A stretch of DNA of 64,000 bases, taken from assembly GCA_903857825.1 (NCBI GenBank), contig CAIOGI010000006.1, positions 25,132-89,131 of the forward strand, in the 5' to 3' direction. The notes below the pieces were generated by a model. The model ran no database searches. It worked only from the letters and a program-made list of their open reading frames with translations, and was not told where the DNA came from. The translations under genes were made by a program, and so were the position numbers. This document shows, one piece after another, positions 1,364 through 62,251 of the stretch. The stretch's first letter is position 1. Each line of letters starts with the position of its first letter. This DNA comes from Candidatus Tayloriibacteriota bacterium. Lineage in GTDB: Bacteria; Patescibacteriota; Minisyncoccia; Phycocordibacterales; PALSA-1337.

Positions 1364-1364
1364 G

Positions 1365-1500: not shown

Positions 1501-1511
1501 TTTAAATATAC

Positions 1512-1679: not shown

Positions 1680-1683
1680 TTTT

Positions 1684-36206: not shown

Positions 36207-37049
36207 TTACTTATTATTTTTTAATGTTTCAAATCTCTTTGAAACACTACTACTGGTTAATACTCTCATTTGAAAAATACATATACTGTTTAGCTTAACA
36301 AGTCTTTCTTCTTGTGACATATTAGTTCGAATATATTCAGCATTAATACTTTCAATATTTGATAGCACAAGTAGTTGCTCAATAGTCGCATAATCTCGAA
36401 CATTTCCTTCTTTGTCCTTATTTTCGTTACGCCATTGTTTTGCTGTTTTTCCAAATAGAGCAACATTCAAGATATCTGCTTCATCAGCATAAATATAGTT
36501 AATTTGTTCCTTTGTAATATTGGTTGGAATAATATTTTCCTTAATTGCTTGTGTTTGTAGTTTGTAATTCAATTTTGATAAAATACGATTTATATTCCAA
36601 TTAAGTGACAATGCTTGATTTTCACCATCTTTTAATCTTTGAAATTCTTTTATTAAGTACATTTTAAAACCTGGACTAAGCCATGTACCAAACTCGAAAG
36701 CTATATCTTTGTGTGCATATGTTCCTCCCCCATATCTTCCAGCTTTTGACTTAATGCCAATTGCCTTTGTTGCGGTAATCCATTTTTTAGGAGTTAAACG
36801 GAAACTATTGAGTCCAGCCTCCTTCCTAAAGGTGTCGAATTCGACACCTTTAAAATCTAAATTGTGTATTTGCTCCCAAATACCAAGGAACTCCAGTGTA
36901 TTTCGATTTCGCATCCACCCATAAATCAAATCCTCACCACCAAACTTTTTAGCCATATCTGTGAGACATATATAATCCCCAAAACTATCGGATATTATTG
37001 TTATCTCAGAGCCCTGCACGTTTATATGCGATTTTGTATCTTTTTTCAT
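36207..37049 (-). CDS. KilA-N domain-containing protein (phage antirepressor-like N-terminal DNA-binding domain)
   Basis: ITIISDSFGDYICLTDMAKKFGG...LIYGWMRNRNTLEFLGIWE matches the KilA-N/APSES-type fold pattern, followed by a C-terminal domain of unknown function. Confidence 0.6.
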   Translation of the reverse strand: MKKDTKSHINVQGSEITIISDSFGDYICLTDMAKKFGGEDLIYGWMRNRNTLEFLGIWEQIHNLDFKGVEFDTFRKEAGLNSFRLTPKKWITATKAIGIKSKAGRYGGGTYAHKDIAFEFGTWLSPGFKMYLIKEFQRLKDGENQALSLNWNINRILSKLNYKLQTQAIKENIIPTNITKEQINYIYADEADILNVALFGKTAKQWRNENKDKEGNVRDYATIEQLLVLSNIESINAEYIRTNMSQEERLVKLNSICIFQMRVLTSSSVSKRFETLKNNK

Positions 37050-37188
37050 ATTTTGTTTAATTATCTTAATAATTTGCATACTTTAACAAAAAGTTCTTAA
37101 GAAGTTTTAAAGAAATTATTAAGAAATGATAAAGATTTGAGTTAGAAAATGAAATACGAGAACTGTAAATATTTTTTAGTATAAAAAT

Positions 37189-37692
37189 ATGATAGATTTT
37201 ACATCAATGATTATTGGATTGCATAAAAAATATATTAAAGGCAGTGAGAAAAATGCTATTGTTCAAATAGTTCAAGCGTTTATGTGTAATTTAACTGCGG
37301 CCGTCGTAAAAGGTATATCGTGTCCTAGTAATAAGGTTTATATCAGTACTCGCGTATTAAAACATGTATATGACAAGAGGCCTGCAGAAGAATTTGATTT
37401 TCTGATCGAAAACCTACATTTGATTATTAAGTTCCCAGATTTAATTTTTAAAAATAAAAGTGGCAAGCGTGGTGAATTTTGCTTTGTAAAAGAAATTAAA
37501 GGCAAAAAATACTTATGCTCAATAGAAATTATAAACAAAGTGGACATAGTCCAATGTGAAATAGCTACCTTTTTCCGTGTAGATAGTGATTATTTAAAAA
37601 ATTACGAACTCTTATGGGAGTGGAAGGGCGGCGGCCTTCATCGTAGTGCGTTCGATGCTGATATTACTCAGCCTAATAGCACCCTGCAGTAG
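37189..37692 (+). CDS. Hypothetical protein (167 aa), possibly a phage-associated nuclease-like domain
   Basis: ORF divergent from the KilA-N gene. There are no secure motifs, and the PBECR-like guess is weak. Confidence 0.35.
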   Translation: MIDFTSMIIGLHKKYIKGSEKNAIVQIVQAFMCNLTAAVVKGISCPSNKVYISTRVLKHVYDKRPAEEFDFLIENLHLIIKFPDLIFKNKSGKRGEFCFVKEIKGKKYLCSIEIINKVDIVQCEIATFFRVDSDYLKNYELLWEWKGGGLHRSAFDADITQPNSTLQ

Positions 37693-37852
37693 AGCCTTTC
37701 TGACTTTCACCCCCGTAAGAATCAATAATTCACTTATAAGCATATTATACCTAACTTCTATTTTTTTGCCAATTTTTTAGTAAATTTGGAAATAATATAA
37801 AAAACTGGCGGCCCCAAGTAAATGAGGTCGCCAGCGCGAAAGTGATGCTTGA

Positions 37853-38479
37853 TCACATCTGTCGTGATCGATGCTCGGCTCTTATCATGAGCCAAATCAG
37901 TAGCCCGACACCAAATGTGGTCCTACTGGCGAAGATAATAGATAGAGTGTTCCGGCTTACGATACCGGTATACATTGCTATCAATGAAGCCACAAGCACA
38001 AACCACCAAGCGGACAATGGTTCAGTATTTTTCTTGGCGCTCAATAGCCTTTCAGCGGTGATGAGATATCCAATCAGCATCAACACTTGAATGAGAATAT
38101 TGGGGACAATTCCAGTTCCTCCCAATCCCCAGACAAGCACTGCCCAGAATATCGCAATGACCGTCGAAACCATCAGACACACCTTTTGGAAAGTGTTGAA
38201 ACTCAATTTAACCCCATTCGCCCGATTTTTGATGGCGACGGAAATCAGAATTGAGTTGATAGTAACAATACTGATCGCGTTGTACGCGTTACTCACCAAG
38301 CTGTGGTGAGGGCTTGTCCAGTACGTTGCAAAGGACAAAACCGTCCCGAAACTGGTCACAATCCACGTTGCCAACACGGGCTTAACCGCATCGTTCTTTG
38401 CAACCTGAATAATGTACCAGATTGACCCAATGACCAGAATGATCGTCGAAGTCAATGCCGACATTTCTCTCGGTGTCAT
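37853..38479 (-). CDS. Integral membrane protein (about 6 TM helices), hypothetical, in a mildly GC-elevated (about 44%) segment
   Basis: Hydrophobic helices throughout; no family motif. Confidence 0.45.
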   Translation of the reverse strand: MTPREMSALTSTIILVIGSIWYIIQVAKNDAVKPVLATWIVTSFGTVLSFATYWTSPHHSLVSNAYNAISIVTINSILISVAIKNRANGVKLSFNTFQKVCLMVSTVIAIFWAVLVWGLGGTGIVPNILIQVLMLIGYLITAERLLSAKKNTEPLSAWWFVLVASLIAMYTGIVSRNTLSIIFASRTTFGVGLLIWLMIRAEHRSRQM

Positions 38480-38652
38480 AAACTTAAATCAAATTTTCAA
38501 GGTCCAGTTGTGCAACATGCACCCTTTGAACATCATATATTATAACATACTGTATCTATATAAGTCAATGCCTACATAGAAAAAGCCCCATTTCTAGGGC
38601 TCTTTCTTCAAATGCTTACTTTTATCTATTCCCCACCTTCTATTTATTCCTT

Positions 38653-39018
38653 CTACTCTAGAATACCTAATACCTTTTGTAACCTGCCAATCAACTCTTG
38701 CTTTACTTCGTCAGAAGGGACTCCTTCTTCAAAAACACTTGGCGTTCCACTTTCTATTTCATATTCTCCAGCTTTATCAAGTATGTTCGAAATTTCTTTT
38801 TGAGCTGATTCTTCTTGTTCGCTACTAATTTCTTTTTTAAGTTTTGCTGTGCTAAGTAGGGTTGGTATAACTTTCCACACCGTTGTCCTAAAACAAGGAA
38901 ACCAGCTCTGCCCCGTGCGCTGAACTTCAAGACTAATATTTTTTTCTACTGCTTCAACACATTCTTTTATTTTACCCAATGTAGTGATTTCTTTTGGTTG
39001 TTCTAATCCTTCATTCAT
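38653..39018 (-). CDS. Hypothetical acidic protein (121 aa) immediately downstream of rpoC
   Basis: ORF only. Confidence 0.35.
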   Translation of the reverse strand: MNEGLEQPKEITTLGKIKECVEAVEKNISLEVQRTGQSWFPCFRTTVWKVIPTLLSTAKLKKEISSEQEESAQKEISNILDKAGEYEIESGTPSVFEEGVPSDEVKQELIGRLQKVLGILE

Positions 39019-39030
39019 ACAATGATTTAA

Positions 39031-42000
39031 TTAATACCCATATTCCTCCTCCTTTGGCTGTACTGCCTCTATCATTTTCTGCTTTGGACTTCCCGCAAAT
39101 CCTGAACCCGCTGGGATCAAGCGACCGATGATAACATTTTCCATTAGACCAACTAGATCATCCTCACTTCCTCGAACTGCACTGTTTATAAGTACACGAG
39201 TAGTGTGCTGGAATGAAGCTGCTGATAGGAAACTCTTTCTAGATAGAGAAACTTCTGTGATACCCATCACAACAGCTTCTACCTTTGCTGGAGAACCATC
39301 AGTTTCCTTTGCCTTATCATTTTCTTCTCGTAGATATGTATCGTCAACTATCATGCCCTCTGCAAAGTTTGTATTTCCAGCCTCAGTAACTTTTCTTCTT
39401 GAGAACATTTGCTTTACGATAATTTCGATATGCTTTCTAGCAACTGTTTCTCCTTGAAGTTCGTAAATCTTTCCAACTTCTGAAATAACATAATCCTTTG
39501 CCTTCTCTGCCCCACCGAATTCAAATACTTCGTCAATATCAGCAGAACCATCTGTGATAAGGTCACCCTTCTTTACATTATCTCCCATTTTTACGAAAGG
39601 CATACGCTTTGGATTGAATAGATATTCAACTTCACTTGCTTTATGACCCTTTGCTCTATCCTCAAGCTCTGGCATTATTCTTATGACCTTTTCCTTTCCG
39701 AGATCCTTAACTTCTGTAACTGTTCCACTAACTGTGGCAACAACGGCAGGATTCTTTGGACGTCGCTTCTCGAAGATTTCCTCAACACGAGGAAGACCCT
39801 GAGTAATATCTCCACCAACAGACGCTGTACCTCCGGCGTGGAATGTACGCATTGTTAGCTGTGTTCCTGGTTCACCGATAGCCTGACCAGCAACTGTACC
39901 AACTGCTTCTCCAAGTTCTACGAGTTTATTCTTTCCAAGATCAGCACCATAACATTGTGCACATACGCCTCTCACACTCTTACATGAAAGTGGAGAACGA
40001 ACGCGAACAGAAGTAATACCCGCCTCCTCGATTTGAACTGCCTCTAGCTTTGAAAGAAGATGATTCTTCTTGAACAAGCTCTTCCCATCTGCAGTTACTA
40101 AATCCTCTGCAAGTACACGGCCTCTAATGTTCTTTGAAAGTGGAATGTTAATTCCTGAAGCTGTTTGCTTCTTTATGGTGATTGACTCCTTTGTCCCGCA
40201 ATCATCTTCATTGACCATCACATCCTGTGCAACAACGAATAGCTTTCGAGTGAGGTAACCTGCCTTTGCTGTGTTAAGAGCGGTATCTGTAAGACCCTTT
40301 CTTGAACCGTGAGTAGTAATGAAATACTCGATAGGAGTAAGACCTTCCTTTGAACAAGAAATAATTGGGAATTCAATAGTCTCTCCAGATGTAGATGCGA
40401 TAAGACCCTTCATACCAGCCATCTGAGTAATCTGTGAAAGAGAACCTCGGGCTCCAGAAGTAACCATGTCGTAGACAGATCCCATCTTGTTTAGAGAAGC
40501 TGGAATAAGTTTTTCAACTTCGTTCTTTGCCTTGTGCCAGATTTCTATATTCTTTCTCAATCTCTCTTCTTCAGTTAGAAGACCTTCATTGAATTGATCC
40601 ATTACCAATTCTGAATTTGCCTTCGCCTTTGATATAACTTCTATTTTACCCTTTGGAATGACAACATCATCAATACCCCATGTAGTTCCTGAGTGTGTAG
40701 CGTATTTGAATCCGAATGTCTTGATCTGGTCTAGGATAATAGGTATATCCTTCATATCATGAGTAATGATCAAATCATCCATAATTCCAGAAAGTTTCTT
40801 TCTATCGATTTCCTTGTTTATAAAAGGATAATCTGAAGGAAGAATGTCATTGAATAGAATACGTCCGACAGTTGTTTCGAAAAGCTTACCTTCAAACTGT
40901 GCATATTTCTTATCATCTCTTGGTAGAACCTTTATCTTTGCTCTGTATGTTACTGCACCATAGTTGTGTGCTGTAAGAGCGGCTTCAGGACTTTCAAAAA
41001 TCTTTCCTTCTCCTGTATCACCATCAACAATTTTTGTAATCCAGAAACAACCAAGCACAATATCAAGAAGCTTAGCTACAACCGTAGGATCTCCGTTTCC
41101 AGGCTTTAAGATGTTCTTGTCAGCAGCCATAATTTCCTTTGCTTCAAGCTGAGCCTCAACTCCCAATGGAACGTGAACAGCCATCTGGTCACCGTCGAAG
41201 TCAGCGTTGAAAGCTGTACATACAAGTGGGTGAACTTGAATAGCGTTTCCTTCAATAAGGATAGGACGAAATGCCTGTATACCAAGTCTGTGTAGAGTAG
41301 GTGCTCGGTTTAGAAGCACGTACTTTCCTTCAATAACTTCTTCTAGGATTTCCCAGACTTCCTTTGCACCATCATCAATAAGTCTACCAGCACCACGAAT
41401 ATTAAATGCCAATTCCCTCTTCAATAGTCCAGAAATAACGAATGGTCGGAATAGTTCTAGTGCCATGTGCTTTGGAAGACCACATTGATCAAGAGCTAGG
41501 GTAGGACCGACAACGATCACAGAACGTCCTGAATAGTCCACACGCTTTCCAAGAAGATTTTGTCGGAACAGACCTCTCTTACTCTTCAAATTGTCTGAAA
41601 GAGATTTCAATGCACGCTTCTGAGCCTGAATAGCAGCAGCTCCCGTAGCTGCACCATGACGAATAGAATTATCTATAAGCGCATCAACTGCCTCTTGTAG
41701 AATTCTTTTTTCATTTCGAAGAATAACATCTGGAGCATCGATTTCCTTTAGCTTCAAAAGACGATTATTTCGGTTTATAACTCTTCGATACAAATCGTTT
41801 ACATCTGAAGTAGCATAACGTCCTCCATCAAGAGCAACCATAGGTCGAAGTGCAGGTGGAATAACTGGAATTCTTGTAAGGAACATCCACTCTGGTCTTG
41901 TCTCTGATTTTATCATTGACTTGATAAGAGAAATTCTCTTTGAAAGTTTTTCTTTCTCAAGTGAACCTGCCTTATCGATTTCTGCATTTAATGCCAAAAG

Positions 42001-42711
42001 AAGCTTATTCATGTCTGTCTTCTTCAATATTTCAAAAATTGCCTCAGCACCAATGCCAGCTTCAAATAGAGCACCATATTTCATTGAATATCTGTGAAAT
42101 TGAACTTCATCCATTACGAAACCAGGTACTAGGCTCTCGATTTCTCTTCTAGCTGTAAGTACAAGTTCTTTCAAAGCCTCCTTTGTCTTTTCATCCTGAG
42201 CTGCTTTTACCTTTGTCTTGAATTCAGAATCAAGCTCCTTCAAGAATGCATCTTTTTCTGACTGATGAATCTTTGTAACTATATATCCAGCAAAGTAAAC
42301 AACCTTCTCTAGATCAGAAGTTGTCATTCCAAGTACTAGACCAATACGAGATGGCATAGATCGTAGGAACCATATATGTGATACGGGTGTAGCTAGCTCG
42401 ATATGTCCCATTCTGTCTCTTCGAACTATTGAACGGGTGATCTCAACTCCACATTTTTCACAAACAATTCCCTTATATCTTATTCCGCGATATTTTCCAC
42501 AATAACATTCGAAATCACGATCTGGACCAAATATCTTCTCATCAAAAAGTCCATTCTTTTCTGAACGCTGTGTTCTGTAGTTAATGGTTTCTGGCTTAGT
42601 AATTTCACCAAATGACCATTCCAAGATTTTCTCAGGCGAAGCAACACCAAGCTTCACTGCATCGAAGTCTGTTGGGTCATTTTGTCTTTTGTACATATTT
42701 TTATTTTCCAT
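39031..42711 (-). CDS. rpoC: DNA-directed RNA polymerase subunit beta'
   Basis: Catalytic NADFDGDQMAVH. N-terminal zinc-binding CYCGKYRGIRYKGIVCEKCGVEI. 1226 aa. Confidence 0.95.
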   Translation of the reverse strand: MENKNMYKRQNDPTDFDAVKLGVASPEKILEWSFGEITKPETINYRTQRSEKNGLFDEKIFGPDRDFECYCGKYRGIRYKGIVCEKCGVEITRSIVRRDRMGHIELATPVSHIWFLRSMPSRIGLVLGMTTSDLEKVVYFAGYIVTKIHQSEKDAFLKELDSEFKTKVKAAQDEKTKEALKELVLTARREIESLVPGFVMDEVQFHRYSMKYGALFEAGIGAEAIFEILKKTDMNKLLLALNAEIDKAGSLEKEKLSKRISLIKSMIKSETRPEWMFLTRIPVIPPALRPMVALDGGRYATSDVNDLYRRVINRNNRLLKLKEIDAPDVILRNEKRILQEAVDALIDNSIRHGAATGAAAIQAQKRALKSLSDNLKSKRGLFRQNLLGKRVDYSGRSVIVVGPTLALDQCGLPKHMALELFRPFVISGLLKRELAFNIRGAGRLIDDGAKEVWEILEEVIEGKYVLLNRAPTLHRLGIQAFRPILIEGNAIQVHPLVCTAFNADFDGDQMAVHVPLGVEAQLEAKEIMAADKNILKPGNGDPTVVAKLLDIVLGCFWITKIVDGDTGEGKIFESPEAALTAHNYGAVTYRAKIKVLPRDDKKYAQFEGKLFETTVGRILFNDILPSDYPFINKEIDRKKLSGIMDDLIITHDMKDIPIILDQIKTFGFKYATHSGTTWGIDDVVIPKGKIEVISKAKANSELVMDQFNEGLLTEEERLRKNIEIWHKAKNEVEKLIPASLNKMGSVYDMVTSGARGSLSQITQMAGMKGLIASTSGETIEFPIISCSKEGLTPIEYFITTHGSRKGLTDTALNTAKAGYLTRKLFVVAQDVMVNEDDCGTKESITIKKQTASGINIPLSKNIRGRVLAEDLVTADGKSLFKKNHLLSKLEAVQIEEAGITSVRVRSPLSCKSVRGVCAQCYGADLGKNKLVELGEAVGTVAGQAIGEPGTQLTMRTFHAGGTASVGGDITQGLPRVEEIFEKRRPKNPAVVATVSGTVTEVKDLGKEKVIRIMPELEDRAKGHKASEVEYLFNPKRMPFVKMGDNVKKGDLITDGSADIDEVFEFGGAEKAKDYVISEVGKIYELQGETVARKHIEIIVKQMFSRRKVTEAGNTNFAEGMIVDDTYLREENDKAKETDGSPAKVEAVVMGITEVSLSRKSFLSAASFQHTTRVLINSAVRGSEDDLVGLMENVIIGRLIPAGSGFAGSPKQKMIEAVQPKEEEYGY

Positions 42712-42735
42712 GGTTTTTATAATTATTTGATGAAA

Positions 42736-44112
42736 TTAATTGGTAATGGTGAAGTAATTATCGCTTACATCACAAGGATTACTTGAACGGACTCTTGATT
42801 CGTCAAATACATTTGGACAAATAGTTATTTTATATAATCCTGCTTTTGGTATAGTCTGACTATTTCCTCCTAATGAATACTGACCAACTGTCCACTCAAA
42901 TATGCCGGAATTACTAACAGCCTTTGCTATTATTGGACTAAAACTGGTTGTTGGCATATTTGTACCAGGCGCTGGAGGAGCTAAGCAAGGCTCAAGAACA
43001 CAATTTTCTTTTGATTCAATTTTTATATCAACAATTTTACCTTGAATTGGTTTCCAACCAATAACCTGTTTACTTCCCATCTTCCAAACTTCCCCTCCAT
43101 TTGGTGAAAGAACGGTGATGGAGGGTTGGGTGTTTGAGGTAGATGTAAATTTAAAATTATTTAATAAATCATTAATTTCATTATCGGTAAAGTTAGCTGC
43201 GTAAAAGTGGTACATGATCCCATTGTGGTAAACATAGAACCATCTTTTATCGTTTAATGACCATAATACTTTTTCACCCCCAATTGCAGAAACACGTCCT
43301 AATAAATTAGAAACAAGATTGGGTATATATGAGGTACACGATTCGACAGAATTACAACCTTTCACAACGGTTTGATCAAGACGCGACTTATCTCTTGTTT
43401 CAATACTAAATTCTTGTTTTTTATTCTCATTCACCAAAGTTAGAGTTGCTACAGTATTTGCCTTTTCACATGATGAAGGAGCGTATCCTCCTGAGATAAC
43501 TTCCATTACTCTATAATTACTTGGGTATTTAATCGTATAATTATATTTAGTGATCGCACATGAAATCAATTTATTAACTTCTAACAAGTTTTGATCTACT
43601 GAAGTCTGAGAAGTAAATTTAAGAGTTGATATAATTTGACTCATAATGCTTTTTGCAATGTTATCACCAGCAGTCATTGTTATTGATATATCATTTTTAG
43701 GTCCCATACAGATGGTTTTGTAAAAAACTAATCCAAAACCCTGTTCCCAGTCAGAATTAACACAAGCTGATCCCGTCTTCTTAATAACTAATTGCTCAAT
43801 AGGAAGATCTGTATCTGGTTTACCTTGTTTGTCTGGATTCACAATTCTAACAATATTATTGTCATCTTCTTTTATTAGCCAATTTGGAAGATATTTAATT
43901 TCAAATCCATGTTTCTCATTTATATACGTCTTCCAATCTGAAGTTACTACTGTAGACGTCGCATTTACTACCACATCATCAACCTTGGGTTCTAGAGGAG
44001 CTACCACATCCCTTGTCCCAAAGTAATATACAGCACCAGCAGCCACTGCAATAGCGACTATTATAACCATCCCCTGCGCTGCAAACCCTTTTTTATAATT
44101 TATTTTATTCAT
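42736..44112 (-). CDS. Hypothetical membrane-anchored secreted protein (458 aa) inserted between rpoB and rpoC
   Basis: N-terminal TM anchor GMVIIVAIAVAAGAVYYF. C-terminal SITVLSPNGGEVWKMGSKQVIGWKP beta-sandwich-like repeat. Confidence 0.5.
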   Translation of the reverse strand: MNKINYKKGFAAQGMVIIVAIAVAAGAVYYFGTRDVVAPLEPKVDDVVVNATSTVVTSDWKTYINEKHGFEIKYLPNWLIKEDDNNIVRIVNPDKQGKPDTDLPIEQLVIKKTGSACVNSDWEQGFGLVFYKTICMGPKNDISITMTAGDNIAKSIMSQIISTLKFTSQTSVDQNLLEVNKLISCAITKYNYTIKYPSNYRVMEVISGGYAPSSCEKANTVATLTLVNENKKQEFSIETRDKSRLDQTVVKGCNSVESCTSYIPNLVSNLLGRVSAIGGEKVLWSLNDKRWFYVYHNGIMYHFYAANFTDNEINDLLNNFKFTSTSNTQPSITVLSPNGGEVWKMGSKQVIGWKPIQGKIVDIKIESKENCVLEPCLAPPAPGTNMPTTSFSPIIAKAVSNSGIFEWTVGQYSLGGNSQTIPKAGLYKITICPNVFDESRVRSSNPCDVSDNYFTITN

Positions 44113-44277
44113 ATATTTTTTATGATTTTAGAATCTTATTTTCTCCTTTGTAAATAAAATTCTTAACATACTGAATTGCAATAGACTTCAAGGATATCCC
44201 AAAACCCTTAGCTAGTTTTTGAGCTTTTTCTTTTATCCTCTTATTTATTTTTATATTTAGTGTTGTTTTCATATATT

Positions 44278-45342
44278 TTATTTCAATTTCTTAATACTAT
44301 CTCCAACCACCTTATTTGTCTCCTTGATAAATTGATCGAAGTCACTTTCAAATATTCTATCCTGAACTATTCTATACTTTTCAAATTCACTTTCTGCGAA
44401 ACTTTTTGCTATCTCTGCAGATACTTTACCAGGATTATCCAGTACTTTTCTTTTATTAAATTGTAGAAAAGCATCCAGTCTTTCTGCCCAGTCCTTCATA
44501 GTCATAGGTATTTTTTGTTCTGCTTGATCTTCCGCATAGTCAAGGTACATGGATACAATACGATCAAGAGATTTTATCTCTTTAGCGTCTAAATAATTTT
44601 TAGCAATGATCACATCAGTCTTTAAAATTTTTCCTTTTGGTGCTTTTTCCCAACTAGTTAGACCCATAAAAGGTTTCTTCGCGTCTGCTCTCTTTATAAT
44701 TACCTCAGCAGCTGTGAATCCATGTATAGCGTAGTGTAATTTATTCTGTACAGTTTTGAAAAATTTCTGGGTTAATGGTGAATCTACATCATAATCCAAT
44801 GCTGTAGTATAAATATCAGTAATTTTTTGATAGAATTTTCTTTCACTGTTTCGTATTTCACGAATTTCTTGTATAAGAGAATCATAATAATTTTGACCAA
44901 GATATGTACCATTTTCTAGTCTATCTTTATCTAATACATATCCACGGACAGCAAAAGTTTTTAGAATTCTCGTAGCCCAACGACGAAATGCAGTGGCTTT
45001 CTCTGAATTTACACGATAACCAATAGCGATAATTGTATCAAGGTTATAGTGTTCGACTTCTCTAGAAACAGAACGACTACCCTCTTTTTGAACTATTAGG
45101 AAATTCCTAATAGTTGCTTCTTTATTTAATTCATTTGATTGATATATAACTTTCAAATGTTCATTTATTGTCGGTATTCTAACTTCAAAGAGTTCAGCAA
45201 TAAGCTTTTGTGTAAGCCATAAATTTTCATTCTCGAATCGAACCTCTATTCCACTCTCTTTAGAATCAGAAGTAAACATCAGAAATTCTGCTGTACTATT
45301 ACGAATTATTAGTTTTTTTGATTCTAAATTATCTTTTTTCAT
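44278..45342 (-). CDS. RhuM-family protein, full-length (354 aa), inserted between rpoB and rpoC
   Basis: HYNLDTIIAIGYRVNSEKATAFRRWATRILKTFAVRGYVLDKDRLEN matches the conserved RhuM core (YNLDAII.VGYRVNS..ATQFRIWAT). A paralog lies at 61739..62251. Confidence 0.65.
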   Translation of the reverse strand: MKKDNLESKKLIIRNSTAEFLMFTSDSKESGIEVRFENENLWLTQKLIAELFEVRIPTINEHLKVIYQSNELNKEATIRNFLIVQKEGSRSVSREVEHYNLDTIIAIGYRVNSEKATAFRRWATRILKTFAVRGYVLDKDRLENGTYLGQNYYDSLIQEIREIRNSERKFYQKITDIYTTALDYDVDSPLTQKFFKTVQNKLHYAIHGFTAAEVIIKRADAKKPFMGLTSWEKAPKGKILKTDVIIAKNYLDAKEIKSLDRIVSMYLDYAEDQAEQKIPMTMKDWAERLDAFLQFNKRKVLDNPGKVSAEIAKSFAESEFEKYRIVQDRIFESDFDQFIKETNKVVGDSIKKLK

Positions 45343-45389
45343 GCTTTTAGTATCTTAAACTGGTCGAATTCTACCAGTTTAGTTTCCTA

Positions 45390-48300
45390 TTACTCTGTCT
45401 CCTCTTCATCACGACCCTTTTTAATCAATTCGACATCCAATGCCAAACCACGTAGTGATTTTAGAAGCACATTGAAAGATGCTGGAAGGTTTGGTTGCTT
45501 CAATGGCTCACCCTTAACAATAGAATCGAATGCCTGAGAACGACCTTGTATATCATCAGACTTTATAGTTAGAATTTCGCGTAGTGTATAAGCTGCACCG
45601 TGACCGAGAAGAGCCCAGACTTCCATTTCTCCAAATCTCTGTCCTCCACCCTGTGCTTTTCCTCCTAGAGGCTGCTGTGTGATAAGAGAGTAAGGTCCGA
45701 TAGAACGCATGTGTATCTTATCCTCAACCATGTGATGAAGTTTCAAGATATACATATATCCGACTGCAATAGGTTGATCGAAATGATCTCCTGTTCGTCC
45801 ATCGCGTAGTTTCATTTTTCCACTTGCATCAAAGCCTGCCTTCACAAGCTCTTCTTTTATTTCAACATCTGTAGCTCCTGTGAATGGAGGGACGATAGCT
45901 TGGTAACCAAGTGTATGTGCTGCTAGTCCAAGGTGAAGTTCTAGTATCTGTCCAAGGTTCATACGTGAAGGCACACCTAATGGGGTTAGAATAACATCGA
46001 CAGGTGTTCCATCTTCCATGTATGGCATATCTTCCTCTGGAAGAATTCTAGAAATAACTCCCTTGTTTCCGTGTCGTCCAGCTAGCTTGTCTCCAACTGA
46101 AACGTTTCTTAGCTCTGCAACTTCTATGTAAATTTTCTTTATGATTCCTGACTCTAGCTTGTCACCTTTTTCTCGTGAGAATATCTTTACAGAAATAACA
46201 CGACCTCTCTTTCCTCCTTCCATTCTCTTTGATGTATCCTTTACATCACGAGCCTTCTCTCCGAAAATAGATCTAAGTAGTCTCTCTTCTGGTGTTAGCT
46301 GAGTCTCACCTCTTGGTGAAATCTTTCCAACTAGAATATCTCCAGGTCGTACTTCTGCTCCGATTCTAACGATTCCATCTTCTGCTAGATTCTTCAATTT
46401 TGCCTCTCCAACGTTTGGAATATCGCATGTAGTAACTTCTGGACCTAGTTTTGTATCACGAACATTTACTACGAATTCTTCTATGTTTATAGAACTGAAT
46501 TTACTATTCTTTACAACTCTTTCTGAAAGAATAATGGCATCTTCGTAGTTATTACCAGACCATGACATGAATGCTACTAGCATGTTTTGTCCAAGAGCGA
46601 TTTCTCCATTGTCTGAAGTAGATGTATCTACCAGCACATCTCCTTTCTTTACCTTATCTCCAACACTTACTATTGGACGTTGATGGAATGATGTGAATCC
46701 ATTTGTTCGAGAGAAATGAATAAGATCGTATTGTTTCTTTCCAACTTTCTTACCTTCAAAAATAACTTTTTTTGAATCAACATAAGTTATCTCGCCATCT
46801 TCTGGTGCAAGCACAATTCTTCCTGTATCGATAACTGCTTGCTTTTCAATACCAGTAGCAACTAAAGGAGCTTCAGGAATAAGACAAGGAGTTGCCTGCT
46901 TTTGCATGTTTGATCCCATGAGTGCTCGGTTCGCATCATCGTGGTTTAGGAATGGAATAAGAGATGTAGCAATAGAAAATGCTTGATTTGTAGATACATC
47001 TATATAGTCGACATCATCTGCCTTTGCTAGACCAGGCTTTCCATTTATACGTACCTCGACTTCTGCTGCTGTGATAGTTCCACTTTTATCATAAGGTATT
47101 GCACCGTGAGCGATTCTAAAACCTTCTTCTTCAAGTGCATTCAAATATACAATGTCCTTTGTAACCTTTCCATTCTTTACCTTTGCATAAGGAGTTTCGA
47201 TCATTCCAAAATCATTTATACGAGCATAAGTAGCAAGGTTTAGAATAAGACCAATGTTTGGACCTTCTGGTGTGTGAATAGGACAAATTCTTCCGTAGTG
47301 AGATGGGTGAACGTCTCGAACTTCGAAACCTGCTCGCTCTCGTGTTAGACCTCCAGGACCAAGTGCTGTTAGTTTTCTAAGGTTTTCGATTTCTGATAGA
47401 ACGTTTTCCTGACCCATGAACTGTGACAATTGGTTTGTAGTAAAGAACTCCTTTATACGTGCCTGAAGTGGTCTTGGGAAAACGAAATTTACAGGAAGAG
47501 TAACATCTGGCTCTACCGTAGACATCTTGTCCTGAATATTTCTCTTCATCTGTGTCATACCGACACGTAGCTTCTGCTGTAGAAGTTCACCTACATATCG
47601 AACACGTCTTGATCCTAGATGATCAATATCGTCTTCAACGGCCTCTGGAGTATTATTTAGAAGAGTAATATGAGAAATTATTGTTGAAAGGTCATCTGTT
47701 GATACTGTCTTGTGTTCAAGATCTTTTTCCTCCATTGACTTTCCGAAACGCTTGTTAAAACGGAATCTTCCAACACGAGATAGGTCATATCTTTCTGGAT
47801 TAAATATATTTCCAAGAAATTCACGAGCATTATCAGCTGTAGCCAAATCTCCATCACGAAGTCGCTTGTGTATTTCAACATATGCTTCATCTACTGTCTT
47901 TGCATGATCCTTGGCAAGAGTTTGTTCAATAGCCTTTTTTGCAAGTGCCTCCTTATCAAATAGTGCTAGTATTTCTTCATTTGTCTTTGCTCCAAGAATT
48001 CTAAGTAAAGATGTAATAGGAAACTTTCTCTTTCTGTCTATACGTGTGTAGATTGTCCCATCTGAATCTGATTCGATTTCCATCCATACTCCGCGGGCAG
48101 GAATAACCTTGGCACCAAAAAATGTCTTACCCTTTATCTCATTTGCAGTAAAAAATATACCAAAGGATCTAGCTAATTGAGGAACTATAACTCTCTCAAT
48201 CCCATTTATAATAAATGTACCGTGATTTGTCATCAAAGGAAGGTCTGCAAGAAACATTTCTTGTTCTTTGACTGCATCAAGAAGTTTATTCTTCAGCTTT

Positions 48301-48566
48301 ACCTTAACCTTTATTTGTCCTTCATATGAAAGTTTATTGTTTTTAGCATAATGCTCGTCGTACTTTGGCTTTGAAAGCTCAAAACCAGTAAAAGACAGCT
48401 CGAACTTCTTCTTGGCATAATCCTCAATTGGTGAGAATTCTTTCAACACTTCTGATATACCATTATCTAAAAATGTATCGAAAGAAATCGTCTGTGACTC
48501 AACCAAATTTGGCATAGCTGTCAATGGCTCTTTGAATCTACTGAAATACTTTTTGGTTATATGCAT
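45390..48566 (-). CDS. rpoB: DNA-directed RNA polymerase subunit beta (short, 1058 aa)
   Basis: N-terminus SFDTFLDNGISEV; C-terminal catalytic region GGQRFGEMEVWAL; conserved blocks throughout. Confidence 0.95.
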   Translation of the reverse strand: MHITKKYFSRFKEPLTAMPNLVESQTISFDTFLDNGISEVLKEFSPIEDYAKKKFELSFTGFELSKPKYDEHYAKNNKLSYEGQIKVKVKLKNKLLDAVKEQEMFLADLPLMTNHGTFIINGIERVIVPQLARSFGIFFTANEIKGKTFFGAKVIPARGVWMEIESDSDGTIYTRIDRKRKFPITSLLRILGAKTNEEILALFDKEALAKKAIEQTLAKDHAKTVDEAYVEIHKRLRDGDLATADNAREFLGNIFNPERYDLSRVGRFRFNKRFGKSMEEKDLEHKTVSTDDLSTIISHITLLNNTPEAVEDDIDHLGSRRVRYVGELLQQKLRVGMTQMKRNIQDKMSTVEPDVTLPVNFVFPRPLQARIKEFFTTNQLSQFMGQENVLSEIENLRKLTALGPGGLTRERAGFEVRDVHPSHYGRICPIHTPEGPNIGLILNLATYARINDFGMIETPYAKVKNGKVTKDIVYLNALEEEGFRIAHGAIPYDKSGTITAAEVEVRINGKPGLAKADDVDYIDVSTNQAFSIATSLIPFLNHDDANRALMGSNMQKQATPCLIPEAPLVATGIEKQAVIDTGRIVLAPEDGEITYVDSKKVIFEGKKVGKKQYDLIHFSRTNGFTSFHQRPIVSVGDKVKKGDVLVDTSTSDNGEIALGQNMLVAFMSWSGNNYEDAIILSERVVKNSKFSSINIEEFVVNVRDTKLGPEVTTCDIPNVGEAKLKNLAEDGIVRIGAEVRPGDILVGKISPRGETQLTPEERLLRSIFGEKARDVKDTSKRMEGGKRGRVISVKIFSREKGDKLESGIIKKIYIEVAELRNVSVGDKLAGRHGNKGVISRILPEEDMPYMEDGTPVDVILTPLGVPSRMNLGQILELHLGLAAHTLGYQAIVPPFTGATDVEIKEELVKAGFDASGKMKLRDGRTGDHFDQPIAVGYMYILKLHHMVEDKIHMRSIGPYSLITQQPLGGKAQGGGQRFGEMEVWALLGHGAAYTLREILTIKSDDIQGRSQAFDSIVKGEPLKQPNLPASFNVLLKSLRGLALDVELIKKGRDEEETE

Positions 48567-48667: not shown

Positions 48668-48694
48668 AACGCCTGTAAAGGGCGTTCCTTATAC
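48668..48694 (-). terminator. Rho-independent terminator for the membrane-protein gene upstream of rpoB
   Basis: On the minus strand, AACGCCCTTTACAGGCGTT is followed by ATTTTTCG. Confidence 0.5.
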
Positions 48695-53143: not shown

Positions 53144-55135
53144 ATGGACTTTAGCCCCATTTTCTGTTATAGTGTATTTTCACAAATGACTCATAAAAAA
53201 CAAAAAACAGGGGCCAATACACTGATTGGAACGATAATGACCAATCGCAAAGGTATGGGCTTTGTTAAAGACCCAAAGAACGATGAAAAGGACATCATGA
53301 TAGACGTCGGGTTTTTAAATACGGCATTAAATGGCGATACGGTGGAAATTAAGATTGGAAAAAAGAATTCTTATGGACAACTTTCTGCAGAGGTCTTACG
53401 TGTTATAGAAAGGGCACGAAATTCATTTGTATGCACAATAGACAGCCGAGAAGGCATTCTAACAGCTTATCCAGATGATAAAAAAGCATATGCTTCTATT
53501 GTACTTTCATCAACTGATAAGGATCGGGTTACTATCGGCGATAAAGTTTTCGTAAAAATGAATGAATGGAAAGATGCGAAACAAAATCCTACAGGAAATA
53601 TAATAAAAGTAATTGGAAAGAAAGGTAATAATAATGTAGAAATGGAAAGTATAGTACTCGAAAGAGGATTTGAAATCGGCTTCCCTTCTGCTGTTGAAAA
53701 TGAGGCATCAGAAATAGAAAAAAACAAAATTAATGATATTAATTCTGAAATTCCAAAACGCAAGGACTTCCGTGGAACTTTGACTTTCACCATTGACCCC
53801 TTTGATGCAAAAGACTTTGATGATGCAATATCGTACAAAAATCTTGGTTCCGGCAAGTATGAAATCGGCGTACATATCGCCGATGTAAGTCATTATGTCA
53901 TAGAGGGTTCAGCTCTGGACAAGGAGGCATTGAAGCGTGGTTGTTCTATATATTTAGTCGACCGAACTATACCCATGCTTCCAGAAGTCCTATCAAATGA
54001 CGTATGTAGTCTTAATCCACATGAAGACAAGCTCACCTTCTCTGCTTGGTTTGTAATGAATGATAGAGGAGAGGTTTTAGAACGAGGCTTTGGGAAAACT
54101 ATTATAAATTCTGATCACAGATTTACTTACGAAAATGCTCAGGAAGTTTTGAATGCCAAATCAGGACAGTATTTTACTGAGCTAAATAAGCTAAATGAAA
54201 TAGCAAAGATTCTGCAAAAAGAAAAGTTCAAAAAAGGTGCAATAGAATTTGAACAAGAAGAAATCAAATTCAAATTAGATGAAAATGGAAAGCCAATAGG
54301 AGTATATAAAAAAGCTCGACTAGATACACACAAACTAGTTGAGGAATACATGCTACTAGCAAATCGTGAAGTTGCTAAACATATTTTTGACTCAATAAAA
54401 AAGAAAGGTAAAAAGGATACGGGTTCAATATACCGAATACACGACATTCCAGATCAAGAAAGAATGCTTGATTTATCAACCTTCGTAAAGGCCCTAGGAT
54501 ACAAATTGAATACGAAAGAAGGTAAAGTTACTGCTCACGATATAAAGTCGCTATTAAAGCAAATTGAGGGCACTACACATGAAGCCTTGATCAGTACTGC
54601 GGTTATAAGGTCAATGCAAAAAGCGGTTTACTCTACGAAGAACATAGGTCACTTCGGCCTAGCTTTTGAATATTACACACACTTCACTTCCCCTATTCGT
54701 CGTTATCCAGATCTGTTGATACAAAGAATTCTTCAGAGACATCTTCACAATGAACCTTTTGGTGATACAGAAATAAATTCATTTCAAAACATTGCAGAGA
54801 AATCTACAGCTAGAGAAATAGACGCAGCTGGAGCAGAAAGAGAATCAAAGAAACTCAAGCAAGTTGAGTACATGTCAGACAAAGTCGGACAAGTCTTTGA
54901 AGGTACTATTTCCGGAGTTACAGAGTGGGGTATGTATGTAGAGGAAAATGAAACTAAGTCCGAAGGAATGATCAAGATCCGAGATATCGGTGATGACTAT
55001 TTTGAATTTGATAAAAAGACTTACTCGATCTTTGGTCAAAAGACAAAGAAAAGATTTACTCTAGGAGATCCTATAAAGTTTAAGGTTGCAGGTGCTGATT
55101 TGGATAAAAAAACACTGGATTTCTTACCAGCTTAG
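53144..55135 (+). CDS. rnr: RNase II/R-family 3'-5' exoribonuclease
   Basis: RNB domain RKDFRGTLTFTIDPFDAKDFDDAIS and HFGLAFEYYTHFTSPIRRYPDLLIQRIL; C-terminal S1 domain. The true start is probably downstream of 53144, for example MTHKK at 53186. Confidence 0.8.
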   Translation: MDFSPIFCYSVFSQMTHKKQKTGANTLIGTIMTNRKGMGFVKDPKNDEKDIMIDVGFLNTALNGDTVEIKIGKKNSYGQLSAEVLRVIERARNSFVCTIDSREGILTAYPDDKKAYASIVLSSTDKDRVTIGDKVFVKMNEWKDAKQNPTGNIIKVIGKKGNNNVEMESIVLERGFEIGFPSAVENEASEIEKNKINDINSEIPKRKDFRGTLTFTIDPFDAKDFDDAISYKNLGSGKYEIGVHIADVSHYVIEGSALDKEALKRGCSIYLVDRTIPMLPEVLSNDVCSLNPHEDKLTFSAWFVMNDRGEVLERGFGKTIINSDHRFTYENAQEVLNAKSGQYFTELNKLNEIAKILQKEKFKKGAIEFEQEEIKFKLDENGKPIGVYKKARLDTHKLVEEYMLLANREVAKHIFDSIKKKGKKDTGSIYRIHDIPDQERMLDLSTFVKALGYKLNTKEGKVTAHDIKSLLKQIEGTTHEALISTAVIRSMQKAVYSTKNIGHFGLAFEYYTHFTSPIRRYPDLLIQRILQRHLHNEPFGDTEINSFQNIAEKSTAREIDAAGAERESKKLKQVEYMSDKVGQVFEGTISGVTEWGMYVEENETKSEGMIKIRDIGDDYFEFDKKTYSIFGQKTKKRFTLGDPIKFKVAGADLDKKTLDFLPA

Positions 55136-55443
55136 TTTCTACTTCTTTCAAATATAACTTTTCCAAATTCATCTATATGCTTTTTTAGTTCAAGATTTGA
55201 AATAACATTATAATCAAGTACGTCTACTTTGTATGCAAATGGTGACGCATTATTTAAAAAGTTCAAAAGACTACCCGCAGTAGTATCTTTCAAATTTCCT
55301 TTTATAGAAATATCAATATCAGATGTACTTTTATAATTACCCATAGCTCTTGAGCCAAATATAGAAGCAGAATCAATATCGGCATAATTACCAATTGCTT
55401 GAGTTATAAAATCCAAATTTTCTTGACTTATCCCAAAATTCAT
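55132..55443 (-). CDS. Nucleotidyltransferase-domain protein (MNT/HI0073-like)
   Basis: SIFGSRAMGNYKSTSDIDISI is the GS...D.D motif of minimal nucleotidyltransferases. Confidence 0.7.
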   Translation of the reverse strand: MNFGISQENLDFITQAIGNYADIDSASIFGSRAMGNYKSTSDIDISIKGNLKDTTAGSLLNFLNNASPFAYKVDVLDYNVISNLELKKHIDEFGKVIFERSRN

Positions 55444-58970: not shown

Positions 58971-59227
58971 ATTGTGCACATTCTAGCACACTCTAAATAG
59001 GTTTTTATAACTATCGCAGCAACCTCAATACAAGCCAAAAAGGATAGGTAGCTAATAACATTTAGCACTTGTAGAATTTATGAATCAAACAAAAGTCATT
59101 TATTTCTGTATTTCCAGAATAATAGATGCAAAAAGAAAAAGCCCAGACCTCCTTGTGGTGTATGAACCACGGTCTTAAGACCTTTTCATTACTATATATT
59201 ATCACAATCAATAACCCAGTCAACTAC

Positions 59228-61738: not shown

Positions 61739-62251
61739 TTAAGTTTTATCATTCCCCTCCATATTCTTTGTAATTTTTAAAGTAAGTTTACCTTTCAATT
61801 TGCCCTTATATTTATTCGAAGTAATCAATGCCAATGTTTCCTGCAAACCCTCTATTACTTCTGGATTCTTCTTTAATTTATACTCTTGTAAAACATAACC
61901 ATTTTTTAAATATTCTCTCAATACTCCAGTCGCCCAAATACGAAATTGAGTCGCTTTCTTTGAATTTACACGATAACCGACTGCGATAATAGCGTCGAGA
62001 TTATAGAACTTAGTTTCATATGACTTCCCATCAGCTCCAGTATTCCGGAATTTCCGGATAACTGAATTAATGTCTAATTCCTCAGTTTTGAAAATATTCT
62101 GCAGATGCTCACTAATAGTTCTTACATTAATTTCAAACAATTCAGCAATTTGTGCTTGTGTAGCCCAAATTGTGTCTTCCTTAATGTCTGCCCTTAGCTC
62201 AATGACCCCGCCCTTTCCTTGATAAATGATTATATTATTCTTTTTATCCAT
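61739..62251 (-). CDS. RhuM-family protein, short or truncated paralog (170 aa)
   Basis: FYNLDAIIAVGYRVNSKKATQFRIWATGVLREYLKNGYVLQE. Lacks the C-terminal half present in the 44278..45342 paralog. Confidence 0.6.
   Translation of the reverse strand: MDKKNNIIIYQGKGGVIELRADIKEDTIWATQAQIAELFEINVRTISEHLQNIFKTEELDINSVIRKFRNTGADGKSYETKFYNLDAIIAVGYRVNSKKATQFRIWATGVLREYLKNGYVLQEYKLKKNPEVIEGLQETLALITSNKYKGKLKGKLTLKITKNMEGNDKT

What the first reader, a model, noticed from the sequence alone, without database searches (positions are those of the whole stretch)
42736..45342. rpoB and rpoC are split by a RhuM-family gene and a 458-aa secreted protein gene
rpoB-rpoC adjacency is one of the most conserved gene pairs in bacteria. 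Here 2.6 kb encoding a full-length RhuM-family protein and a membrane-anchored secreted protein sit between them, all on the same strand, so they are presumably co-transcribed with the RNA polymerase genes. A second, shorter RhuM paralog lies at 61739-62251 next to another foreign-looking gene. RhuM-family genes are typical mobile or defence-island cargo, which suggests insertion of selfish or defence DNA into an essential operon.
Basis: partly seen in the sequence, partly recalled or inferred. Interest (0 to 1): 0.65.

Follow-up and report, generated by a model that had tools for sequence, protein, structure and literature searches.

The report
Variable gene slot splitting rpoB–rpoC
In this ultra-small (CPR/Parcubacteria) bacterium the two big RNA polymerase genes, normally neighbours, are separated by a phage-defence-type gene (RhuM), a leftover piece of a toxin-antitoxin module and a cell-surface protein gene, and related genomes show that this spot is a recurring slot for swappable cargo rather than a one-off accident.

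Summary
On the minus strand, rpoB (45390-48566) and rpoC (39031-42711) are 2,678 bp apart. Between them lie a full-length RhuM gene, an overlooked 50-aa ribbon-helix-helix ORF and a 458-aa membrane-anchored protein gene. Identical copies occur in at least 12 contigs from many samples, so this is not a misassembly.

The genome is a Parcubacteria/Paceibacterota (CPR) genome. Of 78 related genomes, 72 keep rpoB and rpoC within about 220 bp. Six carry other cargo at exactly this junction: RelB/DinJ–RelE/YafQ toxin-antitoxin modules, small anchored surface proteins, or both. Metagenome contigs add four or five more cases. The insert looks layered:
- The anchored-protein gene shares its 3' end with the one in the closest relative.
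- The 50-aa ORF is the antitoxin's N-terminal domain, with the toxin lost.
- RhuM plus that remnant form a 1,257-bp block that only this lineage has.

RhuM matches the PADLOC candidate defence family PDC-S05, one member of which reportedly protected E. coli from phages. I found no integrase, target-site duplication or restriction-modification partner. Co-transcription with the RNA polymerase genes is likely but inferred. The parts are ordinary; the location, and the repeated reuse of this junction, are the unusual features.

The parts
45390..48566 (-). rpoB (RNA polymerase beta, 1058 aa), intact
   Evidence: Six Rpb2 Pfam domains. Aligns over residues 1-1058 with relatives. The last 100 aa are 98% identical to L062.
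48668..48686 (-). Terminator-like hairpin upstream of rpoB. It implies that rpoB starts its own transcription unit.
   Evidence: Consensus scan only. Inference.
45356..45381 (-). 9-bp-stem hairpin just after the rpoB stop, at the left edge of the lineage-specific block. No U-tract follows it on the coding strand.
   Evidence: Inverted repeat I14. RNA fold -11.5 kcal/mol, z -3.4. Homology with L062 ends at 45376.
44119..45375 (-). 1,257-bp block found only in this lineage: leader with hairpin, RhuM, and the antitoxin remnant.
   Evidence: Edges come from comparison with L062. A 69-kb metagenome contig (L085) starts at 44117 and another contig ends inside the 50-aa ORF.
44278..45342 (-). RhuM-family gene (354 aa), full length
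   Evidence: PF13310 E 3.9e-110. PADLOC PDC-S05 E 2.9e-153. It keeps every column that is invariant in a 50-sequence alignment.
44120..44272 (-). 50-aa ribbon-helix-helix ORF: the N-terminal domain of a RelB/DinJ-type antitoxin. The C-terminal half and the toxin gene are missing.
   Evidence: 49-58% identical over 38-45 aa to the 90-aa antitoxins at the same junction in L006, L059, L089, L090, L092 and L093. DUF6364 and Arc-like hits. Called as a gene on other contigs.
44125..44154 (-). Promoter-like site (TTTACA-18-TAAAAT) inside the 3' end of the 50-aa ORF, upstream of the 458-aa gene
   Evidence: Consensus scan, 10 of 12 positions. The region has fewer such sites than shuffled sequence, so this is weak evidence.
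42736..44112 (-). 458-aa N-terminally anchored surface protein: TM helix, two alpha/beta domains (weakly PsbP-like) and a C-terminal Ig-like (Kre9/KNH-type) domain
   Evidence: AF2 model with mean pLDDT 70; domain 60-165 scores above 90. PsbP_2 E 0.009. Homologues carry PF10342, PF18933 and PF01471. C-terminal domain is 29% identical, E 1e-7, to the L090 junction protein. PDB fold search gave only weak Ig/Fn3 hits.
39031..42711 (-). rpoC (RNA polymerase beta', 1226 aa), intact
   Evidence: Five Rpb1 domains. 85.6% identical to L062 rpoC over residues 4-1226.
61739..62251 (-). Separate short protein (170 aa) with only the RhuM N-terminal domain. Its stop codon abuts the ATG of rnhB.
   Evidence: PF13310 positions 1-81 of 252. 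Matches the short PDC-S05 profiles. 46% identical to the main RhuM over 118 aa. Sequence read directly.

Best explanation
The spacer between rpoB and rpoC in this Parcubacteria/Paceibacterota lineage is a variable cargo slot inside the RNA polymerase operon, and the window shows one three-layer occupant. Layer 1 is a fast-evolving, N-terminally anchored cell-surface protein gene (458 aa). By position it corresponds to the 180-aa gene in the closest reliable relative, and it belongs to a domain-shuffled set of anchored proteins found at this junction in other relatives. Layer 2 is the N-terminal DNA-binding domain of a RelB/DinJ-type antitoxin. Its RelE/YafQ-type toxin-antitoxin (TA) module is a recurrent resident of exactly this junction; here the toxin and the toxin-neutralising tail have been deleted. 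Layer 3 is a full-length RhuM (PADLOC PDC-S05) gene, which probably acts as a stand-alone anti-phage or conflict protein. It has an N-terminal winged-helix-like DNA-binding part and an all-helical C-terminal part that others have proposed to be a toxin/effector domain. Shown: gene content, intactness, patchy distribution, shared edges, and reuse of the junction. Inferred: all three genes are transcribed by read-through from the rpoB promoter on the way to rpoC, which would give constitutive expression. Also inferred: cargo enters and leaves by recombination anchored in the very conserved flanking RNA polymerase genes, not by an element-encoded recombinase. None of the three products is likely to be part of RNA polymerase.
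For: Gene identities. Reproducibility on independent contigs. Synteny: 72 of 78 relatives have an empty junction. Six are occupied by a TA module (L006, L009), an anchored protein plus TA (L059), or a single anchored protein (L007, L008, L062). The metagenome scan for the toxin found that relatives at 60% identity or more lie at the junction in L089, L091, L092 and L093. L090 has the same gene set as L091, L094 lies elsewhere, and more distant relatives are not at the junction. L090/L091 carry anchored-329aa, antitoxin, toxin, anchored-238aa, then rpoC, which parallels the window's order. Window versus L062: colinear through rpoB plus 14 nt, and again from the last 30 nt of the anchored-protein gene through rpoC. 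TA proteins are as similar between distant lineages (toxin 70% with rpoC 60%, L006 vs L059) as between close ones (toxin 52% with rpoC 82%, L006 vs L009), which suggests horizontal exchange into the same site. RhuM is a solo gene in other CPR and non-CPR contexts, including between pheS and pheT. None of 35 other RhuM loci has the RHH partner. A PDC-S05 representative gave about a 1000-fold drop in efficiency of plating for phages T7 and T5 in E. coli (bioRxiv 10.1101/2024.09.26.614923). A toxin-domain role was proposed in PMC3710099. Spacers are 47, 5, 7 and 24 nt with no terminator-like site on the coding strand.
Against: There are no expression data, so co-transcription is inferred from spacing alone. 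A hairpin after rpoB and a promoter-like site before the 458-aa gene could partition transcription. No recombination tract was detected in the rpoB 3' end between TA-bearing lineages: L059-L006 identity is no higher than L049-L006. The recombination mechanism is therefore unproven, and ancient residency of the TA module with repeated loss remains possible. The defence role of RhuM rests on one heterologous test of a different family member. The AlphaFold2 model of this RhuM was poor (pLDDT 48), so no fold-based mechanism could be derived. GC3 of the inserted genes (0.20-0.24) lies within the host range (0.14-0.34), so composition gives no sign of recent foreign origin.
Confidence: 0.68

Rival explanations
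1. RhuM and the 50-aa RHH protein form a functional two-gene module, with RhuM as toxin/effector and the small RHH as its repressor or antitoxin. On this view the pair was newly assembled at this site, and the RHH ORF is not a dead remnant.
For: The two ORFs are 5 nt apart on the same strand. The RHH domain is complete: one strand plus two helices, with Arc-like and DUF6364 hits. The ORF is called, and is identical, on many contigs. RhuM was proposed to be a toxin domain (PMC3710099). RhuM and the RHH ORF lie together inside the same 1,257-bp lineage-specific block.
Against: None of 35 other RhuM loci has an RHH homologue nearby, and close CPR RhuM genes are solo. The RHH is homologous to antitoxins of RelE/YafQ toxins at this same junction and lacks their C-terminal 40 aa.
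Confidence: 0.12
2. The inserted proteins are lineage-specific RNA polymerase accessory factors or transcription regulators that were recruited into the operon for stoichiometric expression.
For: Operon position and tight spacing. RhuM has a DNA-binding-type N-terminal domain, modelled as helix-turn-helix plus a beta-hairpin wing with pLDDT 70-84.
Against: The arrangement is absent from 72 of 78 relatives, and RhuM is absent from all 80 related loci. The closest RhuM homologues sit at unrelated loci in other genomes and on viral contigs. The 458-aa protein has a TM anchor and Ig-like/PsbP-like ectodomains typical of surface proteins.
Confidence: 0.04
3. A site-specific mobile or selfish element, or a toxin-antitoxin module with its own targeting, homes to the rpoB-rpoC spacer. 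RhuM and the surface protein genes are its passengers.
For: The same TA subfamily lies at the same junction in lineages whose rpoB is only about 67% identical. TA similarity does not track the rpoB/rpoC distance. Hairpins sit immediately after rpoB in the window and in L007.
Against: No recombinase, transposase or nuclease gene lies in any occupied junction. There are no terminal or target-site repeats. Cargo order and content differ among junctions. One close TA relative (L094) is not near rpoB or rpoC.
Confidence: 0.12
4. The split is an assembly or binning artefact that joins unrelated DNA.
For: Metagenome-derived sequence. Two contigs break inside the junction. One relative (L001) is discordant across the junction, with rpoB 89% and rpoC 69% identical to the window.
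Against: The identical arrangement is on at least 12 contigs of 10-120 kb from ENA, JGI and NCBI samples, and L081 is 100% identical over 13,065 bp. Both RNA polymerase genes are intact and colinear with L062.
Confidence: 0.02

Closest known systems
RhuM family (Pfam PF13310; COG3943) = PADLOC phage-defence candidate PDC-S05
   Same: Full-length, high-scoring match that keeps all family-invariant residues. It is a solo gene, as in many other genomes, and is horizontally spread across phyla and on viral contigs.
   Different: Classically described inside type I restriction-modification / PrrC loci, pathogenicity islands or prophages (PMC3710099, PMC9881135). Here there is no R-M gene among the annotated ORFs of the window, and the gene sits inside the rpoB-rpoC operon of a CPR bacterium.
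RelB/DinJ - RelE/YafQ type II toxin-antitoxin modules
   Same: The 50-aa ORF is homologous to the RHH domain of the 90-aa antitoxins paired with RelE/StbE-YafQ toxins at the same junction in relatives (TIGR02385 41.3 bits, above the 27.9 cutoff; PF15738 36 bits, above 30).
   Different: Only the DNA-binding half of the antitoxin remains and there is no toxin gene. This is an orphan remnant, not a TA system.
Defence/variable-gene hotspots flanked by conserved core genes, as described for E. coli and Pseudomonas pan-genomes (own knowledge; see also PMC12629846 and bioRxiv 10.1101/2024.01.28.577318, listed but not read)
   Same: It is a fixed chromosomal position between conserved genes that carries different cargo in different lineages, including defence and TA genes.
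   Different: The flanks are the two halves of one essential, normally contiguous operon. Cargo is tiny (0.6-2.7 kb), same-strand, without integrases or tRNA targets, and mixed with surface-protein genes. The host is a reduced CPR genome.
Kre9/KNH-type Ig-like ('Ser-Thr-rich GPI-anchored') and PsbP-like surface proteins of CPR bacteria
   Same: The 458-aa protein's homologues carry PF10342, PF18933/PF01789, PF01471 and PF18911. The model shows a TM anchor, alpha/beta domains and an Ig-like domain.
   Different: The protein itself reaches no Pfam gathering score. The domain combination and the position between rpoB and rpoC are specific to this lineage.

Membership tests
RhuM family (PF13310) | Whole-protein match to the family HMM above the gathering score, covering the model | tested here: met
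   367.5 bits against a cutoff of 33.7, model positions 1-249 of 252.
RhuM family (PF13310) | Retention of residues invariant across homologues | tested here: met
   More than 100 invariant columns in a 50-sequence alignment include the window protein.
RhuM family (PF13310) | Typical embedding in type I R-M / PrrC / DOC loci (a frequent context, not obligatory) | tested here: not met
   No R-M, PrrC or Fic/DOC domains were found among the 44 window ORFs scanned. Other close homologues are also solo.
PADLOC PDC-S05 (candidate single-gene phage defence) | Match to PDC-S05 profile HMMs over full length | tested here: met
   PDLC04851 E 2.9e-153, protein residues 9-344 against profile positions 4-336 of 342.
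PADLOC PDC-S05 (candidate single-gene phage defence) | Confers protection against phage | not testable with these tools
   Only a report for another family member in E. coli B. No phage or host system is available for this organism.
Type II TA system (RelB/DinJ-RelE/YafQ) | Adjacent antitoxin and toxin genes | tested here: not met
   No RelE/YafQ-like ORF lies in 42712-45389. The antitoxin ORF stops after 50 of about 90 aa and is followed 7 nt later by the 458-aa gene.
Type II TA system (RelB/DinJ-RelE/YafQ) | Antitoxin N-terminal RHH DNA-binding domain | tested here: met
   49-58% identity to junction antitoxins over 38-45 aa. Arc-like repressor hit at E 2e-4.
Integrative mobile element (transposon, integron cassette or genomic island) | Recombinase/transposase gene and terminal or target-site repeats | tested here: not met
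   No such gene lies in the insert. The repeat search shows only short AT-rich chance matches.
RNA polymerase accessory subunit | Conserved presence with rpoB/rpoC across the lineage | tested here: not met
   RhuM is absent from all 80 related loci, and 72 of 78 junctions are empty.
Core-gene-flanked variable hotspot | Same flanking genes with different cargo in different genomes | tested here: met
   At least five distinct contents occur at the rpoB-rpoC junction.
Core-gene-flanked variable hotspot | Evidence of horizontal exchange of cargo (recombination tracts in the flanks) | tested here: inconclusive
   TA similarity is discordant with the rpoB/rpoC distance, but the rpoB 3' end shows no elevated identity. 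L001 is discordant across the junction but may be a co-assembly chimera.

The most novel reading that the evidence does not exclude
In Paceibacteria the rpoB-rpoC spacer is a dedicated exchange site. The near-invariant ends of the two RNA polymerase genes would serve as homology arms, letting very divergent CPR lineages, which lack conventional mobile elements, swap small cassettes (RelE-type TA modules, RhuM-type defence genes, variable surface proteins). These cassettes would then be expressed and stabilised by riding on an essential operon. The junction-resident TA module may hold the slot open.
Probability: 0.3. Interest if true: 0.7.

Novelty: new variant of a known kind. Interest (0 to 1): 0.5.

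Why it matters
The rpoB-rpoC gene pair is used as a textbook example of conserved gene order, and both genes serve as phylogenetic markers. A lineage in which the pair is repeatedly pried apart by conflict genes and surface-protein genes shows that even this operon can act as a pan-genome hotspot. One paper notes that very few defence systems have been identified in Patescibacteria (PMC12366544). This window carries several candidates wedged singly between housekeeping genes: RhuM/PDC-S05, KilA-N/PDC-S22, HEPN-MNT and DUF3800. That placement suggests how reduced genomes without islands or integrases might hold and trade such genes. It also matters in practice: contigs break at this junction, and one relative (L001) is discordant across it, which can mislead marker-gene phylogenies.

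Tried and rejected
- **Target-site duplications and terminal repeats.** Only short AT-rich matches turned up. The 41-nt, 71% 'repeat' merely reflects similar start regions of two genes.
- **Rfam.** Nothing in the junction at gathering thresholds, and nothing at E ≤ 1 in 37600-39050.
- **AlphaFold2 of RhuM.** Using 50 homologues gave a mean pLDDT of 48, too poor for a fold search, so I did not use it for mechanism.
- **PDB sequence search with RhuM.** No hit at E ≤ 1.
- **Foldseek of the 458-aa model against PDB.** Only weak Ig/Fn3 hits with E ≥ 1e-3. The afdb50 library was unavailable.
- **Compositional test for foreignness.** GC and GC3 were uninformative.
- **Recombination-tract test in the rpoB 3' end.** Negative between TA-bearing lineages.
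- **L001 as the nearest 'empty site'.** I dropped it because its rpoC is only 69% identical while its rpoB is 89% identical.
- **Literature.** A search for genes inserted between rpoB and rpoC found nothing relevant.
- **PHROGs and NCBIfam.** No hit for RhuM or the 458-aa protein.
Full report
**What is there**

All genes discussed lie on the minus strand. The ORF list and Pfam scan give:
- rpoB at 45390-48566 (1058 aa)
- a 354-aa RhuM-family protein at 44278-45342 (PF13310, E 3.9e-110, model positions 1-249 of 252)
- a 458-aa ORF at 42736-44112 with no Pfam hit
- rpoC at 39031-42711 (1226 aa)

Reading the sequence shows that the supposed 165-bp intergenic stretch is a 50-aa ORF, 44120-44272. 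It begins 5 nt after the RhuM stop and ends 7 nt before the 458-aa gene. The other spacers are 47 nt (rpoB to RhuM) and 24 nt (458-aa gene to rpoC). The same five-gene order, with identical proteins, is recorded on at least 12 contigs read out of 38-41 sample blocks, and L081 is 100% identical over 13,065 bp. The split is therefore real and not an assembly artefact.

**Organism and synteny**

The best rpoB matches (up to 89% identity) are metagenome-assembled genomes labelled Taylorbacteria, Paceibacterota or Parcubacteria. A few carry a 'Saccharibacteria' label, which appears to be generic. The short rpoB and rpoC fit a CPR genome.

Of 78 related loci that hold both genes, 72 have an rpoB-rpoC gap of no more than about 220 bp. 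Six have inserts at this junction:
- L006 and L009: a 90-94-aa antitoxin plus an 85-88-aa toxin
- L059: a 209-aa anchored protein plus the same toxin-antitoxin (TA) module
- L007, L008 and L062: one anchored protein of 180-197 aa each

The toxin passes the thresholds for YafQ (PF15738) and RelE/StbE (TIGR02385). The antitoxin is RelB/DinJ-like, below threshold. The L062 protein has a Kre9/KNH Ig-like domain and the L008 protein has a TIG domain. None of the 80 loci has RhuM.

On an rpoB neighbour-joining tree, the window groups with L062 and L001. A sister clade (L005-L009) is mostly occupied, and L059 is a distant, isolated case. L001 should not be used as an 'empty nearest relative': its rpoB is 89% identical to the window's but its rpoC only 69%, so it is either a chimera or a recombinant at the junction.

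**The junction is reused**

I scanned the metagenome collection with an alignment of the three toxins. Relatives at 60% identity or more sit at the same junction:
- between rpoB and rpoC in L089, L092 and L093
- just upstream of rpoC in L091
- L090 carries the same genes as L091 but on a contig too short to include rpoB or rpoC
- L094 lies elsewhere
- more distant relatives with adequate flanks are not near rpoB or rpoC

L090/L091 show a four-gene insert: an anchored 329-aa protein (TIG plus Ig-like domains), antitoxin, toxin, and an anchored 238-aa protein, followed by rpoC. This order parallels the window's RhuM, antitoxin remnant, 458-aa protein, rpoC.

TA similarity does not track host distance. 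L006 versus L059 gives toxin 70% with rpoC 60%, while L006 versus L009 gives toxin 52% with rpoC 82%. This hints at horizontal exchange into the same site. However, I saw no elevated identity in the rpoB 3' end, so ancient residency with repeated loss is not excluded.

**Anatomy of the window's insert**

blastn against L062 is colinear from 48567 to 45376 (rpoB plus 14 nt) and again from 42766 to 39025 (the last 30 nt of the anchored-protein gene, the spacer and rpoC). By eye, the L062 sequence 'AACTAAACT|AAATATATGAATAAA' is interrupted in the window between 45376 and 44118. That defines a 1,257-bp block, 44119-45375, which holds a leader with a 9-bp-stem hairpin, RhuM, and the 50-aa ORF. The hairpin folds at -11.5 kcal/mol (z -3.4) and has no U-tract.

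Two observations suggest strain heterogeneity at the right edge of this block. A 69-kb JGI contig (L085) starts at window position 44117, and another contig ends inside the 50-aa ORF.

The 50-aa protein is 49-58% identical over 38-45 aa to the N-terminal RHH domain of the junction antitoxins. It lacks their C-terminal roughly 40 aa, and no toxin gene follows. None of 35 other RhuM loci has such a partner. I therefore read it as a remnant of the junction TA module rather than a RhuM partner, with about 0.12 probability left for a functional pairing.

**The 458-aa protein**

The AlphaFold2 model (57-sequence alignment, mean pLDDT 70) shows four parts:
- a TM helix at residues 11-32
- a confident alpha/beta domain at 60-165
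- a weaker second alpha/beta domain at 190-322
- an Ig-like domain at 330-458

The sequence evidence is weak but consistent: PsbP_2 at E 0.009, and homologues carrying PF10342, PF18933/PF01789, PF01471 and PF18911. The PDB fold search gave only weak Ig/Fn3 matches. The C-terminal domain is related to the L090 junction protein (E 1e-7), which in turn is related to the L062 and L008 proteins. This is a fast-evolving CPR surface protein, not an RNA polymerase factor.

**RhuM**

The protein matches PADLOC PDC-S05 over its full length (E 2.9e-153). It is 66-72% identical to homologues from Deltaproteobacteria, Geobacteraceae, Xanthomonadaceae and others. Relatives at 42-60% identity occur on 30 IMG/VR contigs.

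The nearest homologues are from other CPR contigs, where RhuM is a solo gene among housekeeping genes. One (84% identical) lies between pheS and pheT, another conserved gene pair. DNA similarity to the nearest homologue with DNA available (79% protein identity, L082) covers only the ORF.

The literature offers two leads:
- RhuM was proposed to be a toxin domain in R-M/PrrC loci and is often fused to DOC (PMC3710099).
- RhuM is enriched next to invertible type I R-M genes (PMC9881135).
- One PDC-S05 representative reduced the efficiency of plating of T7 and T5 about 1000-fold in E. coli (bioRxiv 10.1101/2024.09.26.614923).

No R-M genes were found among the window ORFs scanned. My structure model of RhuM was too poor to use (pLDDT 48), and the PDB holds no sequence relative. 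The molecular mechanism therefore stays inferred: a DNA-binding N-terminal domain plus a helical effector domain, acting alone.

**Expression**

A terminator-like hairpin lies upstream of rpoB at 48668-48686. No terminator-like site lies on the coding strand between rpoB and rpoC. One promoter-like site (44154-44125) precedes the 458-aa gene, although the region has fewer such sites than shuffled sequence. Given the 5-47-nt spacers, read-through from rpoB to rpoC across the cargo is the simplest model. It is untested.

**Mechanism of gain**

The insert has no recombinase and no repeats. GC3 of the cargo (0.20-0.24) lies within the host range. The most economical model is homologous recombination anchored in the conserved RNA polymerase genes, but this is inference.

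**Second RhuM**

The 170-aa protein at 61739-62251 carries only the RhuM N-terminal domain (46% identity over 118 aa) and abuts rnhB. It is not a recent duplicate, and its downstream neighbour is a housekeeping gene.

**Verdict**

The components are known kinds of gene. The notable points are the location inside the rpoBC operon and the recurrent, lineage-wide reuse of that junction for TA modules, surface-protein genes and, here, a RhuM defence-type gene.

Noticed in passing
window 36207-37692: A KilA-N protein (36207-37079, minus strand) matches PADLOC candidate PDC-S22 at E 1.8e-125. It is divergently paired with a PBECR3 (Barnase/EndoU/RelE-like nuclease) ORF at 37189-37692 (plus strand). 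The pair is wedged between the genes downstream of rpoC and dnaG-rpoD.
   Followed up: partly
window 55132-55838: A HEPN (NTase_sub_bind, 55440-55838) plus minimal nucleotidyltransferase (Polbeta, 55132-55443) toxin-antitoxin-type pair lies between the RNase R and smc genes.
   Followed up: no
window 58233-58979: A DUF3800 protein sits alone between smc and rnc. It is another single, possibly conflict-related gene between housekeeping genes.
   Followed up: no
window 59938-60831: NusB is fused to a C-terminal NUDIX hydrolase domain in one 297-aa ORF. To my knowledge this is an unusual architecture for NusB.
   Followed up: no
window 37853-38479: A 208-aa multi-pass membrane ORF has GC3 of 0.56, against 0.14-0.34 for every other gene checked. 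It has no Pfam hit, and Rfam found nothing in the region. It may be a recent acquisition.
   Followed up: partly
L001 (CAZVIO010000001.1) 713-3920 and onward: Its rpoB is 89% identical to the window's but the adjacent rpoC only 69%, and the last 100 aa of rpoB drop to 81%. This is either a co-assembly chimera or a real recombinant with a breakpoint at the rpoB-rpoC junction.
   Followed up: partly
contig of P0071 (ERZ1426856, 27.8 kb; no DNA held): The closest RhuM homologue (84% identical) lies between pheS and pheT, together with a DUF1653 gene and an ABC transporter gene. That is a second conserved gene pair split by RhuM in a CPR genome.
   Followed up: no
L090 78-2426 and L091 3-1002: The two anchored proteins flanking the toxin-antitoxin module share an identical first 22 aa (MKTNTQKGSVIPAVIAIVVLLI). 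L009 keeps a 38-aa remnant of the same leader just before rpoC. The K-G-[S/F] motif followed by a hydrophobic stretch, also present in the window's 458-aa protein (KKGFAAQG...), loosely resembles a class III (prepilin-type) signal but lacks Glu+5.
   Followed up: no
L006 10070-10130 and L009 13180-13226: The junction toxin-antitoxin modules carry their own TTGACA / TATACT promoter-like boxes overlapping a palindrome (AAGTATATACTT), typical of autoregulated toxin-antitoxin operators. These inserts therefore bring a promoter into the RNA polymerase operon.
   Followed up: no
window 6122-8926 and 26057-27565: Two large ORFs (934 aa and 502 aa) have no Pfam hit at E ≤ 0.001.
   Followed up: no
L005 (CAZUII010000012.1) about 7968-8070: The sequence right after the rpoB stop codon is a run of N (masked), so the content of this relative's junction (104 bp or less) cannot be read.
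   Followed up: no
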